A DNA stretch of 64,000 nt from Candidatus Latescibacterota bacterium (GTDB taxonomy: Bacteria > Latescibacterota > UBA2968 > SICM01). A program made the position numbers and the translations under genes. Under the pieces are notes generated by a model. That model worked only from the letters and a program-made list of their open reading frames with translations. It ran no database searches and was not told where the DNA came from. The first letter of the stretch is position 1. Each line of letters starts with the position of its first letter. Positions 873 to 8,468 of the stretch are shown here, one piece after another. The DNA is taken from the NCBI GenBank assembly GCA_965217865.1, contig CBDCJO010000002.1, positions 4,128,001 to 4,192,000 on the forward strand. The letters are read 5' to 3'.

Positions 873-980
873 GTGCGGGGTTCCTCCTTTAAAAGAAAAA
901 ATCCCAGAACTTCCCTGGGACAAGGCTGTGAGAAAAAAGATATGTGGATTTGGTCTGGCAGCTAGGCGTGTTAATAGATG

Positions 981-1583
981 TTATCCGTACTTGATCCCGT
1001 CGATGAGTTCTTCCACCATCGGCAGCGGAGGATCCTCTTCTCGGATACGTCGAAAAGCCCGGATCTGGTCTACCTCGGCGGTAAGCCGGCTTATGGCCAG
1101 GGCGCGCCGTTCGTCGATTTGACCGGTCCAGACCGCTTCCTGGATCGAGGCCAGGAGGTTGTGTAGCCGTCGGCCGATGACAATTTCCTCCTCAGACATC
1201 GCGAAACGGTCAGCGGCCTCCGATGCGGAGATGTTGAATCCACCGATTCTGAGGAGGGCGTCGGCTTCTTCTAGGGCCATTAAAGGACTCCTTTGAAGAT
1301 TCTCCTGAAGCGCGACCTCCAGCGCCAGATCATCGGGGACACGGCGAACGATGGCGGGGATTTGAAAATGGCCGAGCCGACGGCAGGCCTCCACCCTGCG
1401 ACGACCGGAAATCAACAGATAACGTTCTTCCCGGGGGGACACCAACACAGGGATCAAGAGTCCGTAGCGCTCAATCGAGTGGGTGAGGTCCTCCAGCTCC
1501 AGGTCGCGTTTTCGGTGACGCAACGGAAGGTCATCATCGATTCGGTCGAGGGGGATATCGAAGAGCGTGTCTACCGAGGCCAT
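981..1583 (-). CDS. ParB/Spo0J-like N-terminal (CTP-binding) domain protein, short
   Basis: LTHSIERYGLLIPVLV, LISGRRRVEAC (GxxRxxA), ALQENLQRSPL and an HTH-like region. Only 200 aa, with no C-terminal dimerisation domain. Confidence 0.85.
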   Translation of the reverse strand: MASVDTLFDIPLDRIDDDLPLRHRKRDLELEDLTHSIERYGLLIPVLVSPREERYLLISGRRRVEACRRLGHFQIPAIVRRVPDDLALEVALQENLQRSPLMALEEADALLRIGGFNISASEAADRFAMSEEEIVIGRRLHNLLASIQEAVWTGQIDERRALAISRLTAEVDQIRAFRRIREEDPPLPMVEELIDGIKYG

Positions 1584-1622
1584 GGATTGGTGTCGGATAT
1601 TCCGGTCTGACAGGAGGCGGAC

Positions 1623-2492
1623 CTACAGATTTTCCCACTCCGTCTCGGGCATGTCTTGGGAAAGCTTGAGGGCTCCGAGCGCCCCACTGTAGATCGGGTC
1701 GTCGACGACTCGGACCCGAGAGGAACCGAATTCGGCGAGGTCATTCTCGATGATCTCCGGCAGCCCCTTGATCTGACTGCCTCCCCCGGCCAAGATGATG
1801 TGATTTCGGAGTTCCTCCTGGAATTCCGGTTCAAAGGTCGTAATCAGTTCCCGGATCGAGGCCAGGGCATCGGGGAGTATGCTTTCGCACGACTCCTTCT
1901 GGTCGATGTCATCCGGTATCGTTCCGTGCATCCGGCAGAGGTCCAAGGTGCCCGCGCCGATGTCCACGATTAGGGCGTTGTTGTATATGCCCAGGCCGTA
2001 TGCCACGAGAAAGGGTTCAGAGACAACCATAACAGCATCCACGAGCCCCTGAACACTGTCGATAATCGCCTGTTTGTCGCTGAGGGTCGCCAGGGCCGGT
2101 GAACCGATGATGGTCCGAACGGTTTGGTTCTCTTTGACCTCGGCCAGAGAGATGACGTGTCTTACGAGTTCATCTCCGGCGATGGCCTCCCGTTCGTTTG
2201 TATCCCCTCCGTTCGTGGTGCGGTACTTGAGGATACCGTTTTCAAGAGGATAGACCAGATCAAGGGCCATCCGATTACGGATGCACTCTTCCCCGAAAAC
2301 GATGGGTTTCTGAATAAATTTATACGAGATCAGGTCTTTCGGCCACCCCACGACAGAGGGAACCGTACGTTTGATGCTCGTACTCGTGGCAATGGAGGAA
2401 TTGGCGGTTCCGAGATCGATTCCCAGGTAAACTACATTGCTTTTCGATGACTCTTGTTGATAAGGCGCGCTTGCTCCCGTCTCCTCCGCCAT
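1623..2492 (-). CDS. mamK: MamK-family actin-like protein with an internal in-frame deletion
   Basis: YLGIDLGT, SVVGWPKD, LDLVYPLENG, VVSEPFLVAYGL, IVDIGAGTLDLC-HGTIP, FEPEFQ, AGGGSQIKGL and GALKLSQDMP-W all match MamK as recalled rather than MreB. The segment between DQ and K-CE is missing. Confidence 0.8.
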   Translation of the reverse strand: MAEETGASAPYQQESSKSNVVYLGIDLGTANSSIATSTSIKRTVPSVVGWPKDLISYKFIQKPIVFGEECIRNRMALDLVYPLENGILKYRTTNGGDTNEREAIAGDELVRHVISLAEVKENQTVRTIIGSPALATLSDKQAIIDSVQGLVDAVMVVSEPFLVAYGLGIYNNALIVDIGAGTLDLCRMHGTIPDDIDQKESCESILPDALASIRELITTFEPEFQEELRNHIILAGGGSQIKGLPEIIENDLAEFGSSRVRVVDDPIYSGALGALKLSQDMPETEWENL

Positions 2493-2584
2493 AGTTCGTT
2501 TACCTCCCTATAGACAAATTCGGGAAAGGGGCCCAAAAAAACAGGTGACAAGTGAAGAATGATCTCATCACCCAATCTGTCCGA

Positions 2585-2956
2585 CTAACTGTTTTCGGCG
2601 GGGCGAATTCTAAATTTTGAAGCCACCCCTCCGGGGATGGTTTGAATATCGGGTCTCGTCCTGTCGCGAAGACCGAGGGGATGACGTTCCTGTTGCGATG
2701 GGGGTGATGCGAGCTCATATTGTAGAACTTTTTCCTTCAATCCCGCCCGCCCCATCAGGGTGGAGAACGCAGCCGCAGATTGGCGGTCCTCAAAAGTTCG
2801 ACCGCCGAGGTCAAGGGTGGATATCTCCTCCGTTTGAGGTGAAAGCAATGCTTTCTCCTGGTCCATCCGGCGGCGAAGATATACGCTGTGCCGAATTGCC
2901 CGACCCTGTTCAAGGTCCTCGTCTCGGAGTATATTGATAAGATGATTAAGTCCCAA
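2585..2956 (-). CDS. Hypothetical protein between the MamA-like and MamK-like genes
   Basis: Co-oriented 123-aa ORF filling the gap, with a TTG start 22 bp after the TPR stop. No recognisable motif. Confidence 0.5.
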   Translation of the reverse strand: MGLNHLINILRDEDLEQGRAIRHSVYLRRRMDQEKALLSPQTEEISTLDLGGRTFEDRQSAAAFSTLMGRAGLKEKVLQYELASPPSQQERHPLGLRDRTRPDIQTIPGGVASKFRIRPAENS

Positions 2957-2978
2957 GCCTAAACCTTAATGCAGAACT

Positions 2979-3911
2979 TCAGTCCGATTTCTTGAAGAAT
3001 TCTATCGCTTTATCGTGTTCCCCCTTGGACTCATAAGCTAGACCGAGGCTCCGGTAGATGCCTTGAAAAGTGGGGGCGCGTTCCACGACGCGGAGGTAAG
3101 ATGCGACCGCTTCGTTGTAATTCTTGTTTTGAATGTGGACGGTCCCAAGGCGATAGTGGCTCTCCGCAATTTCAGGGGCCAGTTCGATGGCCTTCGTCAG
3201 ACAGCGCACAGCCTCGTCGTGGTTACCGTTTTTCGTGTAGATATCCGCAAGCTTGTAATATGCCTTCAGGTAGCTCGAGTCCAAGGAGATGGTTTTCCGA
3301 TAAGACTCGATGGCCTCACGGTGGTTCCCGGCATTATCGAAGGCCACGCCGAGTTTGAAGTTGGCCAAGGCATTCTTTTCGTCAAATTCGACGGTCTTAC
3401 TAAAGGATTCGATGGCCTTTTCATATTCTCCGTTGTTTCCGTTGTTGTTGTAGTTAATCCCGAGTCGGTCGTGTATGTAGGCCAGGTCTTCCTTTGACAG
3501 GCCGAATACATCCTCATAGAAGGAGACCGCCCGATCTGACAGACGCTTGGCGTGAAGGAGGAAGGAGTAGCAGGTGTTTTCAAAATCGCTTATCCGGTGC
3601 TCCAAACGATCAAGCCGAGCCTCGACATTTTTTAGCCTCCGGCCTTCCCCTTCATCTCCTTGCCAGGTCTCTTCACGAGCCCCCCAATCCTCAGTCAAGG
3701 TTTCTTTGGGGGATTTTTCTGCAGCGGGTTCTCCGGTCTCCTGACCCGTCTTGGATGGTATTTCTTCATCAGGAGAGGCGTACTCCTTCAGGACACTGGA
3801 CCTGGTCGATTCGGTGGAGGGGCGTCCCTTGAGCCCTACAGCTGGGGGTGGAATAAACAGCCGTTCCTTTCGTTTGCGCTTTGGGCCGGTGGGTCTCTGT
3901 TCTTGGTTCAA
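2979..3911 (-). CDS. MamA-like tetratricopeptide repeat protein with disordered/coiled-coil N-terminal extension
   Basis: Five TPRs (ANFKLGVAFDNAG, SHYRLG, IYRSLGLAYESKGEHDKAIEFFKK) preceded by HAKRLSDRAVSFYEDVFGLSKE, which resembles the MamA N-terminal helix. Confidence 0.7.
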   Translation of the reverse strand: MNQEQRPTGPKRKRKERLFIPPPAVGLKGRPSTESTRSSVLKEYASPDEEIPSKTGQETGEPAAEKSPKETLTEDWGAREETWQGDEGEGRRLKNVEARLDRLEHRISDFENTCYSFLLHAKRLSDRAVSFYEDVFGLSKEDLAYIHDRLGINYNNNGNNGEYEKAIESFSKTVEFDEKNALANFKLGVAFDNAGNHREAIESYRKTISLDSSYLKAYYKLADIYTKNGNHDEAVRCLTKAIELAPEIAESHYRLGTVHIQNKNYNEAVASYLRVVERAPTFQGIYRSLGLAYESKGEHDKAIEFFKKSD

Positions 3912-5504: not shown

Positions 5505-6368
5505 CTATTCCGTAAGGTGGTGGGCGAAGGCGAAGAGGATATATCCGACCAGGATGGTCGGGAACAGGTTCAATGGGCCGATCAAGAGGCCTGATGCAAG
5601 AAAGAATCCTCCCGTGAAGCCGGCGGCGGCAAGAAAAGCCAACCCTCTTCCGAACCTCCCGACGCTGTGCGGGAGAACCGCGGTGAATTCTCCCGCGGGT
5701 GCGAATACAAGCTTACCGCGCTGGCGTTCCACCTCCAGCCGGTAAAGCTTCGTCATCACCTTTTCGTCCGGTCTGTCCTGATAGACCAGGAGGACGTTTT
5801 CATATTTCGTGGAGATGATCCTGGCGAGCTTCCCGTCGCGTCGGATGGTCACTCCTGGACAGAACGTTGTTCCGTCACCACTTGCCGGAGGGGCATCTTG
5901 CGGTGGCGTCGGTTGGGCACGGGCCTTTGCCTGTGCCTTTTTTGCGGCCATGGCCTCCGCACTGACGGAAGGCTCCCGCCCCGGTTTTGTCGCTGCTTTT
6001 GGAGCGGAAGGGGTTGGAGATTTTTTCCCGCCCGCCTTGGCGGCTCGCATGGCCTCGGCCTTGGCCTTTGCCCGGGCAACGCGGTCGGTGATGGCGTCGA
6101 GGCTGGATAGGTCGATCGATCCCTCGTCGGGTGGGCTCTCCGTTTGCGCCTGGGGGGGGGCCTCCGGCACAGGAGAGGCCTCTGCAGAAGGCGTCTGGGA
6201 AACGGGCGTTGGGGCCGGAGAAGCGGGCCCGGAAGAGGATGGTGTTCCCCCTTCCGTTCCTCCGCCCGCCTTGGCAGCCCGCATCGCTTCTGCTTTTGCT
6301 TTTGCCCGGGCGACACGATCCGAGATTCCGTCGAACGACGACAGGTCCACCTTTTTTTCTTCTGCCAT
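5505..6368 (-). CDS. Ala/Pro-rich membrane-anchored protein with two DLS..DRVARAKAKAEAMRAAK repeats
   Basis: Start MAEEKK at 6368. Repeats at about 6261-6350 and 6028-6116, then a small globular region and a C-terminal TM hairpin. Confidence 0.75.
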   Translation of the reverse strand: MAEEKKVDLSSFDGISDRVARAKAKAEAMRAAKAGGGTEGGTPSSSGPASPAPTPVSQTPSAEASPVPEAPPQAQTESPPDEGSIDLSSLDAITDRVARAKAKAEAMRAAKAGGKKSPTPSAPKAATKPGREPSVSAEAMAAKKAQAKARAQPTPPQDAPPASGDGTTFCPGVTIRRDGKLARIISTKYENVLLVYQDRPDEKVMTKLYRLEVERQRGKLVFAPAGEFTAVLPHSVGRFGRGLAFLAAAGFTGGFFLASGLLIGPLNLFPTILVGYILFAFAHHLTE

Positions 6369-6492
6369 TTTATGGATCCCAAAGGAAACGACTTTGGTTT
6401 GCGTGTATCGATGATCCCGCAAGTCGGAAAATTTATCTCTGTGACGATTCCCTGTCAATAGAAAAGTTGGAGAAATGCGGAAATGCGCCAAG

Positions 6493-7625: not shown

Positions 7626-8468
7626 ATGACAATGTCAGAAGAGGGCAAGGTCGACCTTTCCCAGTTCGACAGCATTCAGGATCGGGTGGCGAGGGCCAAA
7701 GCGAAGGCGGAGGCTATGCGCGCGGCCAAAGGCGGGGCCGCGGCCCCTGCTCCTGAACAAAAGGCCGAGACCTCGCCGGAGGCTGCACAAACGCAAGCTG
7801 AAGCTGCGCCGGCTGTCCCGGAGCCGAAGGCCGTGCCGGCTCCCCCTGAAACAGCACCGGAGCTCCCTGCACCCCCCCCCTTAAGTACCGTGGAGAAGGC
7901 GGCTGCGACCCGAAAGCAGCGGGCCGCGACGCTTTCCAAGGCGGCGAGGGCGACGAAGGCGTCGGAGCCGGCCGATGCGGCTGTGTCCCGCCGGGGATTT
8001 TTCTCGTGGCTGGCCGTGGCGTGGGTGGCCTTTTCCGCTGCGATGGCAGCCGGCGTCGCCGCGATGACCCGGTTCCTCTTCCCCAATGTGCTGTTCGAGC
8101 CTCCCCAGGCCTTCAAGGCCGGGCTGCCCGAAGACTACGATCGAGGGAAGGTGGACGAGCGGTGGAAGGAAAAATTTGGAGTTTGGATCGTCCGGAACGA
8201 GGAGGGAATATTCGCGCTTTCCACCGTCTGCACCCACCTGGGCTGCACTCCGAACTGGCTCGAGGGAGAGAACAAGTTTAAATGCCCCTGCCACGGAAGC
8301 GGGTTCTACAGGACGGGGATCAATTTTGAAGGTCCCGCCCCCCGTCCATTGGAGCGCTACCGGGTTGTCCTCGCAAGCGACGGACAGATCCTGGTGGACA
8401 AGAACAAAAAATACCAGCAGGAGAAGGGTCAGTGGAAAGACCCCGAGTCTTTCCTGAGACTGGCTTGA
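7626..8468 (+). CDS. qcrA: Rieske iron-sulfur subunit of quinol:cytochrome c reductase, with N-terminal extension
   Basis: CTHLGC and CPCHGS, Tat motif SRRGFF plus TM, GPAPRPL. Confidence 0.92.
   Translation: MTMSEEGKVDLSQFDSIQDRVARAKAKAEAMRAAKGGAAAPAPEQKAETSPEAAQTQAEAAPAVPEPKAVPAPPETAPELPAPPPLSTVEKAAATRKQRAATLSKAARATKASEPADAAVSRRGFFSWLAVAWVAFSAAMAAGVAAMTRFLFPNVLFEPPQAFKAGLPEDYDRGKVDERWKEKFGVWIVRNEEGIFALSTVCTHLGCTPNWLEGENKFKCPCHGSGFYRTGINFEGPAPRPLERYRVVLASDGQILVDKNKKYQQEKGQWKDPESFLRLA

What the first reader, a model, noticed from the sequence alone, without database searches (positions are those of the whole stretch)
981..3911. Stand-alone mamA-like / orphan / mamK-like / parB operon without the rest of a magnetosome cluster
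Seen: four co-oriented, closely spaced genes. Known: MamA (TPR coat) and MamK (actin filament) organise magnetosome chains and normally sit with mamB/M/E/O/Q/I/L. The actin carries MamK-specific strings (SVVGWPKD, LDLVYPLENG, SEPFLVAYGL, HGTIP, LSQDMP-W). The TPR has MamA's N-helix plus five-TPR layout. None of the biomineralisation genes is in the window, and a ParB-type CTP-binding protein follows instead. Inference: either a satellite locus of a magnetotactic lineage, or an undescribed organelle/membrane-positioning module (TPR coat, actin, ParB adaptor) that repurposes the magnetosome scaffold. It sits next to a large respiratory supercluster.
Basis: partly seen in the sequence, partly recalled or inferred. 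Interest (0 to 1): 0.85.

Follow-up and report, generated by a model that had tools for sequence, protein, structure and literature searches.

The report
Magnetosome-type scaffold in non-magnetic flagellated bacteria
A four-gene set resembling the filament-and-coat machinery that lines up magnetic organelles is conserved in one class of uncultured bacteria that lack the magnet-making genes, occurs only in genomes that also carry flagellar genes, and likely serves as a positioning scaffold inside swimming cells, but in this strain its actin gene has lost 68 residues while its flagellar genes are also breaking down.

Summary
The four genes are real. TPR-orphan-actin order is conserved in 12 of 12 carrier genomes, with the ParB-like gene next in 11 of 11 that can be read. 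All four are under purifying selection. No magnetosome biomineralisation genes were found in this 2-contig genome or in near-complete relatives. The actin is MamK-family (MamK tops the fold search), in a clade with KSB1 proteins and apart from the magnetosome-context sequences sampled. The TPR's pre-repeat helix alone matches only the MamA model. The ParB-like protein lacks both catalytic residues, the ParA peptide and the dimerisation domain, recalling PadC. All 30 carriers in the class lie among 54 flagellated genomes, none among 78 unflagellated. Best reading (0.45, inferred): a pole- or chromosome-linked positioning scaffold of motile cells. Stand-alone MamK-like actins are published (saltatorellin, Bbp, BeeR). 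I found no paper on this MamA-plus-dead-ParB operon. The scan noted the same operon earlier on another genome (e1-6711107).

The parts
2979..3911 (-). MamA-like TPR protein: variable, likely disordered N-terminus of about 90 aa, a long helix ending in the MamA-type pre-TPR segment, then five TPRs; no transmembrane segment
   Evidence: MamA best hit, model positions 9-199; model of a relative; MamA 3vty best natural fold match, rmsd 1.6 over 164 columns
3420..3581 (-). 54-aa pre-TPR segment that alone matches only the MamA model (positions 9-53, E 1.4e-4) among 18,950 models
2585..2956 (-). Conserved low-complexity linker protein, in the position mamJ holds: N-terminal helix motif and PGG(I/V)xx(R/K)F motif; relatives in two other families add a C-terminal ITIEL(Q/K)S(H/N) tail that this family lacks
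   Evidence: (dN/dS 0.13-0.33); no Pfam, NCBIfam or Atlas hit for relatives (58, 59, 82) or for the window copy in Pfam/NCBIfam (5, 6)
1623..2492 (-). MamK-family actin, here 289 aa because of an in-frame deletion; full-length relatives are 353-381 aa and score 389-407 bits against a cut-off of 400
1898..1899 (.). Junction of the 204-bp in-frame deletion (68 residues; removes subdomain IIB and the family-invariant G and K of alignment A2); polymorphic in public runs
981..1583 (-). Truncated ParB-like protein: ParB_N plus degenerate HTH; QPR becomes PLR-like, GERR becomes GRRR; no N-terminal ParA peptide and no C-terminal dimerisation domain
   Evidence: the chromosomal parAB lies elsewhere
901..921 (-). 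Terminator-like hairpin with T-run just after the ParB-like gene (consensus match only; 8 sites found against 6.3 expected by chance)
3429..3437 (.). 9-bp in-frame duplication in TPR1, absent in runs X7 and X11 and in all aligned relatives

Best explanation
This is a conserved four-gene operon for a MamK-family actin, a MamA-like TPR protein, a linker and a catalytically stripped ParB-like protein, found without magnetosome genes and only in genomes with flagellar genes, and it likely builds a filament scaffold that positions pole-linked or chromosome-linked cargo in swimming cells. Proposed working (all inferred): the actin polymerises along the cell. The linker ties the filament to the self-assembling TPR coat, as MamJ and MamA do on magnetosomes. 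The ParB-like protein binds CTP without hydrolysing it and acts as a constitutive dimeric adaptor to the Par machinery or the nucleoid, as PadC does on bactofilin filaments in Myxococcus. The module becomes dispensable when motility is lost. This strain appears to be in that transition: its actin lacks 68 residues and is predicted to be non-functional, and its flagellar cluster is eroded by large deletions.
For: Shown: TPR-orphan-actin in 12 of 12 carrier loci and ParB-like next in 11 of 11 readable ones. TPR orthologue in 13 of 168 and ParB-like in 11 of 132 genomes, all but one (G100, fragmentary) being actin carriers. dN/dS 0.03-0.33 for all four genes in three genome pairs. Fold search of a full-length relative ranks MamK first (TM 0.84/0.95), then BeeR and MreB. 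The pre-TPR segment matches only MamA. In 10 of 10 aligned ParB-like proteins the positions of M. xanthus Q52 and E93 are replaced; these two residues are catalytic and absent from PadC (10.1101/2021.05.05.442810, passages). All 30 actin carriers are among 54 flagellin- and FliG-positive genomes, 0 among 78 negative ones; by genus 18 of 24 against 0 of 7. Among carriers with 5 contigs or fewer, module lesions go with broken or missing flhA in 3 of 3 and with intact flhA in 1 of 4. One locus of the sister clade has the actin followed, after one gene, by a ParA-family ATPase (L196).
Against: No contact, filament or cargo was shown. 24 of 54 flagellated genomes lack the module, so flagella do not need it. 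The flagella link may only reflect general gene loss in host-associated lineages, and kin are not independent. The ParB-like protein lacks the N-terminal ParA-binding peptide and has an acidic recognition helix, so its partner may be neither ParA nor DNA. The 18 carriers of family f2 have the same actin clade with a coiled-coil partner and no TPR or ParB-like gene, so the ParB link is not universal. MamA coats membranes in magnetotactic bacteria, which points to a vesicle rather than a chromosome. G097 has a frameshifted actin with intact flagellar genes. Single-base lesions in few-contig assemblies may be sequencing errors. The TPR stays under the MamA cut-off (127-166 of 200 bits) and no MamA tree was built.
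Confidence: 0.45

Rival explanations
1. The operon positions an undescribed non-magnetic membrane organelle: MamA-like protein coats vesicles or invaginations, perhaps rich in the respiratory complexes encoded next door, the linker ties them to the actin filament, and the ParB-like protein couples their partition to the cell cycle.
For: MamA-specific pre-TPR segment and MamA as best natural fold match; MamA coats the magnetosome membrane (PMC4482739, passages); linker sits where mamJ and a mamJ-like gene sit (PMC10653835 section 7); 8 of 12 loci abut the ferredoxin/HEAT/Rieske/cytochrome b cluster.
Against: The operon encodes no membrane protein. No organelle gene set was found to track it: microcompartment shells are in 126 of 132 genomes. 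Linkage to the respiratory cluster may be inherited synteny and is absent in G114 and G060. This reading does not explain the flagella link.
Confidence: 0.22
2. A general cell-shape or intracellular-transport filament, like saltatorellin or Bbp, with TPR, linker and ParB-like protein as regulators of assembly rather than cargo adaptors.
For: Published non-magnetotactic MamK-like actins are proposed to act in shape change or large cell size (10.1101/817700; PMC10580974; passages). The family recurs beside cell-wall amidase and SPOR genes in 20 of 79 loci.
Against: MreB is present separately. Those papers' passages name no MamA-like or ParB-like partner. The shape functions are hypotheses in those papers too.
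Confidence: 0.18
3. A functionless remnant of a lost magnetosome gene cluster.
For: Two magnetosome-type genes side by side; lesions in several genomes.
Against: Strong purifying selection in genomes without mam genes; conserved across 3 families and 9 genera; the actin forms a class-wide clade sister to KSB1-like proteins (100/99), apart from the 8 magnetosome-context rows.
Confidence: 0.06
4. A dispersed locus of a magnetotactic lineage whose biomineralisation genes are unassembled or too divergent to detect.
For: Magnetotactic Latescibacteria are reported (PMC7449369, passages). A MamM-like protein from a magnetosome-context locus scores under its curated cut-off (281 of 350), so cut-offs alone are a weak test. 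The magnetochrome search had no positive control.
Against: No CDF transporter match at all in G000 or G042; the MamM-like query finds nothing in G000, G097 or G117 and 24% identity in G098; no LemA in 5 of 5; no Mad28 or Mad coiled-coil hits in G000. Four carriers have 1-2 contigs.
Confidence: 0.04

Closest known systems
MamK (NF040964; PDB 5ljv, 5ljw, 5jyg) with MamJ and MamA (NF040959; PDB 3vtx, 3vty): magnetosome chain scaffold
   Same: Actin closest in sequence and fold to MamK; low-complexity gene directly upstream as mamJ; TPR with MamA's pre-repeat segment and five repeats
   Different: No mamB/M/E/O/Q/P or mad genes found; TPR has an extra ~110-aa N-terminus and scores under the cut-off; a dead ParB-like gene follows; actin clade is separate from magnetosome-context sequences sampled
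Bactofilin BacNOP-PadC scaffold of Myxococcus xanthus (PadC, PDB 6RYK)
   Same: Cytoskeletal polymer with a ParB-like protein lacking Q52 and E93; scaffold role inferred by analogy
   Different: Actin instead of bactofilin; the protein keeps an HTH-like region and is closer to Noc and ParB than to PadC (PadC was not among the 11 PDB hits)
Saltatorellin (10.1101/817700), Bbp (PMC10580974), BeeR (NF053558, PDB 8r2n), Thiomargarita mamK-like (10.1101/2022.04.11.487978)
   Same: MamK-related actins in bacteria without magnetosomes
   Different: Other phyla; no MamA-like, linker or ParB-like partner in the passages read; BeeR model scores 196 against 407 bits for MamK. I had no named saltatorellin or Bbp sequence, so their place in my tree is untested
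MamK with Mad coiled-coil proteins of Desulfovibrio magneticus RS-1 (PMC12748827)
   Same: The sister module in family f2 pairs the actin with a 178-aa coiled-coil protein in 18 of 18 genomes
   Different: No clustering of that coiled coil with the Mad-like proteins of the fetched magnetosome loci; no magnetosome genes

Membership tests
MamK family actin (NF040964) | Model score at or above 400 bits, best hit MamK | tested here: inconclusive
   Window allele 307; full-length own-species P0002 397.6; four type-A proteins 389-407; 21 of 30 class carriers over cut-off; MamK always best
MamK family actin (NF040964) | MamK fold with complete four subdomains | tested here: met
   Met for a full-length relative. 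Not met for the window allele, which lacks 68 residues
MamK family actin (NF040964) | Forms double-helical filaments with ATPase activity | not testable with these tools
   Phosphate-loop motifs are present; needs biochemistry
Magnetosome MamK / magnetosome gene cluster | mamB, M, E, O, P, Q, I in the same genome | tested here: not met
   MamB/MamM, LemA/MamQ, magnetochrome and MamE-like queries negative or generic; MamI and MamL were not searched
Magnetosome MamK / magnetosome gene cluster | Actin nests among MamK from magnetosome clusters | tested here: not met
   Clade with KSB1-like proteins 100/99, apart from 8 magnetosome-context rows and the AMB-1/Nitrospinae group; base unresolved; no AU test; no named Nitrospirota or Desulfovibrio MamK included
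MamA (NF040959) | Five TPRs preceded by the MamA N-terminal segment | tested here: met
MamA (NF040959) | Model score at or above 200 bits | tested here: not met
   127.5, 145.3 and 165.7 bits; other TPRs in the five genomes searched reached at most 106 bits
MamA (NF040959) | Groups with MamA in a tree | not tested
   No usable MamA sequence was obtained
MamA (NF040959) | Oligomerises and coats a membrane organelle | not testable with these tools
   Needs experiment
ParB CTPase | Catalytic Q (QPR) and E (GERR) | tested here: not met
   Replaced in 10 of 10 aligned
ParB CTPase | N-terminal ParA peptide and C-terminal dimerisation domain; parA neighbour | tested here: not met
   Absent against the genome's own ParB
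ParB CTPase | CTP-binding arginine patch GxxRxxA | tested here: met
   G-x-R-R retained in 10 of 10; binding itself untested
PadC | Sequence closest to PadC; bactofilin-binding tail | tested here: not met
   PDB hits are Noc and ParB. It works like PadC at most
MamJ | Sequence similarity to MamJ termini | tested here: inconclusive
   No library hit; no direct comparison made; MamJ-like proteins are known to diverge strongly
BeeR (NF053558) | Model score at or above 530, BeeR clade | tested here: not met
   186-196 bits for full-length type-A proteins; separate clade

The most novel reading that the evidence does not exclude
This operon is a living form of the scaffold from which magnetosome chains were built: a MamA coat, linker and MamK filament that array and segregate a non-magnetic membrane organelle in motile bacteria, tied to the cell cycle by a dead ParB. 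Magnetotactic bacteria would then have recruited a ready-made organelle-positioning system rather than invented it.
Probability: 0.2. Interest if true: 0.9.

Novelty: new variant of a known kind. Interest (0 to 1): 0.62.

Why it matters
MamA and MamK are treated as magnetosome markers, and one survey recommends MamK for detecting magnetotactic bacteria (PMC7449369). Here both occur together, conserved and under selection, in genomes with no detectable biomineralisation genes, so the chain scaffold can be studied apart from the crystal. It offers a small soluble four-protein system to test what MamA does without magnetosomes and how a dead ParB attaches to an actin filament. It bears on where magnetosome chains came from. 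It also warns that mamK, even beside mamA, can misidentify magnetotactic bacteria. Strains that carry both the full and the deleted allele give a natural loss-of-function comparison.

Tried and rejected
Assembly artefact for the short actin: rejected. The deleted form is in contigs of X1 (may be this DNA's source), X2 and X4 (two studies); the full form is in X2, X7 and X11; X2 holds both. Chemoreceptor arrays as cargo: rejected, as 6 of 12 type-A carriers including G000 have no MCP match. Microcompartments as cargo: no signal, 126 of 132 genomes have shells and two carriers lack them. Amphipathic membrane anchor at the N-terminus of the linker or the coiled-coil partner: no support against shuffles. 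Plasmid carriage: no match in 72,556 plasmids. Atlas searches gave generic TPR clusters and nothing for the linker. Expression: short near-identical contigs over parts of all four genes in two sponge RNA libraries do not show transcription, and small shares do not establish habitat. Promoter and terminator scans were at chance level. Complex prediction of actin, TPR and linker was not available, so no contact was tested. A MamA tree could not be built. The first tree was the quick fallback; I rely. Fisher values are not used because kin are not independent.
Full report
Observation. Four minus-strand genes lie as described: TPR 2979-3911, orphan 2585-2956, actin 1623-2492, ParB-like 981-1583. 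Best curated hits are MamA, none, MamK and ParB/Noc. The window lies in a 6.43-Mb, 2-contig assembly, 96% complete and 9.3% contaminated. The lineage is inferred, not shown. The two nearest named loci (88% identity) are titled Candidatus Latescibacterota and uncultured Gemmatimonas, and homologues carry the labels Latescibacterota and Gemmatimonadota. I take Latescibacterota as likely.

The actin is shortened. It is 289 aa. PDB alignment shows MamK 184-250 missing. Against P0002 (357 aa) the first 198 and last 91 residues are identical and residues 199-266 are absent. The lost part includes a G and a K invariant in a 19-sequence family alignment. From general actin knowledge (recalled) this is subdomain IIB and a nucleotide-contacting helix, so the allele is predicted to be dead. 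The deletion is real and polymorphic: deleted in X1, X2 and X4, full-length in X2, X7 and X11 (X1 may be the source; X14 does not cover the site). The same strain has a 9-bp duplication in the TPR and lacks 12 bp upstream of the actin relative to X7 and X11.

Conservation. Of 168 genomes of the phylum, 30 have this actin, all in the window's class of 132; 21 pass the MamK cut-off. Twelve (families f1, f3, f4) carry TPR-orphan-actin in that order, and 11 of 11 with readable downstream DNA have the ParB-like gene next. The TPR orthologue is in 13 of 168 genomes and the ParB-like gene in 11 of 132, never in family f2. The other 18 carriers (f2) have the actin followed by a 178-aa coiled-coil gene in 18 of 18 (two on split contigs). 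Eight of the 12 type-A loci abut the ferredoxin/HEAT/Rieske/cytochrome b cluster; two contigs are too short to tell. dN/dS is 0.03-0.09 for the actin, 0.06-0.14 for the TPR, 0.08-0.16 for the ParB-like gene and 0.13-0.33 for the orphan in three genome pairs (dS is near saturation in two).

No magnetosome genes. The MamB model finds nothing at E 0.001 in G000, G039 or G042 and weak partial hits in G011 and G027, and nothing over cut-off in 168 genomes. Cut-offs alone are weak, since a MamM-like protein from a magnetosome-context locus scores 281 of 350. Using that protein as query gave nothing in G000, G097 and G117, 24% identity in G098 and broken weak hits in G099. LemA/MamQ is absent in 5 of 5 carriers while 6 of 14 controls rang. 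Magnetochrome: 0 of 132 over cut-off, one weak hit in a non-carrier, no positive control. 134 ORFs from 10 magnetosome-context loci gave only generic hits in G000 besides the actin. MamI and MamL were not searched.

What the parts are. A model of a full-length relative (pLDDT 89) matches MamK first, then BeeR, then MreB. A 65-row tree (33 of 79 metagenome sequences plus 32 of 40 database proteins; four long-branch and four other rows left out; rooted on BeeR) joins type A and B (100/99), makes them sister to KSB1-labelled proteins and their unlabelled kin (100/99), and places the 8 magnetosome-context rows in another clade (98/92) mixed with non-magnetosome contexts. The base is unresolved, context labels come from neighbouring genes, and named Nitrospirota, Desulfovibrio, Mad28, Bbp and saltatorellin sequences are missing, so direction of descent is open. 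The TPR aligns to MamA model positions 9-199 at 127-166 bits (cut-off 200); other TPRs in five genomes reach at most 106 bits and start at position 29 or later. The pre-repeat segment alone hits only MamA among 18,950 models (E 1.4e-4 for the window, 0.011 for a relative). MamA is the best natural fold match, behind designed repeats. The orphan is a low-complexity protein with short conserved motifs, placed as mamJ and a functional mamJ-like gene are (PMC10653835, section 7 read). In the ParB-like protein the positions of Q52 and E93 are replaced in 10 of 10 aligned copies, the arginine patch is kept, and the ParA peptide and C-terminal domain seen in the genome's own ParB are missing. Q52 and E93 are catalytic and absent from PadC (10.1101/2021.05.05.442810, passages), the adaptor that holds ParA on bactofilin filaments (PMC9178275, passages).

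Link to motility. Flagellin and FliG mark the same 54 of 132 genomes. All 30 carriers are among them, none among the other 78; by genus 18 of 24 against 0 of 7. Within genus g17, G097 has both and the single-contig G036 neither. Against it, 24 flagellated genomes lack the module, and the pattern may be part of general gene loss. G000's own flagellar cluster is eroded: fliI 1-183 abuts flgE 284-670, fliR 9-103 abuts a truncated, frameshifted flhA, and fliJ, flgD, flgF, flgI and flgK give no hit. Among carriers with 5 contigs or fewer, G000, G039 and G042 have both a module lesion and a broken or missing flhA; G011, G027 and G098 have both intact; G097 has a frameshifted actin with intact flhA. 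Single-base lesions were not checked against reads. Chemoreceptors (absent in 6 of 12 type-A carriers) and microcompartments do not track the module.

Mechanism. Shown: homology, synteny, selection, absence of detectable biomineralisation genes, lost ParB catalytic residues, nesting within flagellated genomes, and decay in this strain. Inferred: filament formation, linker-actin and linker-TPR contacts, CTP binding, and cargo. I commit to a pole- or chromosome-linked positioning scaffold of motile cells (0.45), ahead of an unknown membrane organelle (0.22), a shape or transport filament (0.18), a relic (0.06) and hidden magnetotaxis (0.04). One sister-clade locus with a ParA-receiver gene two genes after the actin (L196) fits but is a single case.

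Prior knowledge. MamK-like actins without magnetosomes are published: saltatorellin (10.1101/817700, passages), Bbp (PMC10580974, passages), BeeR (search listing and one passage) and Thiomargarita mamK (one passage). A survey filtered 2,798 MamK hits to 227 with other mam genes on the scaffold (PMC7449369, passages). A silent but whole cluster in a non-magnetotactic bacterium is a different case (PMC9938234, passages). Passages of PMC12748827 and PMC4482739 were read for the Mad network and MamA. Nine searches returned no paper describing a mamA-linker-mamK-parB operon in this lineage. The library lacks most subscription papers, and unread supplements may list these proteins. The scan itself noted the same operon on another genome (e1-6711107) and a KSB1-like relative (e1-1524684); these are not independent support.

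Verdict. A real, conserved, apparently undescribed variant of the MamK/MamA scaffold outside magnetotaxis, with a PadC-like twist and a link to motility, caught decaying in this strain. New variant of a known kind; interest 0.62.

Noticed in passing
G000:C2 about 2,182,000-2,207,000: Flagellar cluster eroded by large deletions that fuse fliI to flgE and fliR to flhA; several rod, ring and hook-junction genes give no hit, while 5 flagellin genes remain scattered.
   Followed up: yes
   Followed up: partly
L039:9243-13130, L040, L041 and other family f2 loci: Sister module: the same actin clade followed by a conserved 178-aa coiled-coil protein, usually then two Gfo/Idh/MocA-like genes; in G023 the actin is interrupted by a transposase-like ORF.
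   Followed up: partly
L172:8839-11005, L160:10938-12032 and 18 more loci: Recurring amidase - MamK-family actin arrangement in 20 of 79 metagenome loci, with a SPOR gene after the actin in 12; one clade that includes a Nitrospira-labelled protein; suggests a cell-wall role.
   Followed up: partly
L150:8294-11026, L124, L129, L152, L168 and others: MamK-family actin preceded by a family of unannotated proteins (some with GGDEF-like or tyrosine-kinase neighbours) in 23 of 79 loci; possibly the saltatorellin group, untested.
   Followed up: no
L196:1193-4680: Sister-clade actin followed by a lysine-rich repeat protein and a ParA/Soj ATPase fused to a receiver domain.
   Followed up: partly
window 5505-6491 (-) and 7626-8468 (+): A conserved peptide of about 28 residues occurs twice in an unannotated membrane protein and once at the N-terminus of the Rieske protein, in this genome and in relatives; function unexplained.
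   Followed up: no
window 7626-28670: Respiratory supercluster: Rieske, split cytochrome b (ExtP/ExtQ-like), 996-aa multi-haem cytochrome c, aa3-type oxidase, haem O/A synthesis, ABC transporter, nuoL/M/N.
   Followed up: no
P0134-P0149: MamK-family proteins of 520-1230 aa with long N-terminal extensions form one clade; possibly Bbp-related, untested.
   Followed up: no
window 28819-60540: At least four transposase or integrase ORFs, two of them 466-aa copies of one family, consistent with a genome under relaxed selection.
   Followed up: no
G000:C2 2236296: Only one match to a recalled parS consensus, about 830 kb from parAB.
   Followed up: no
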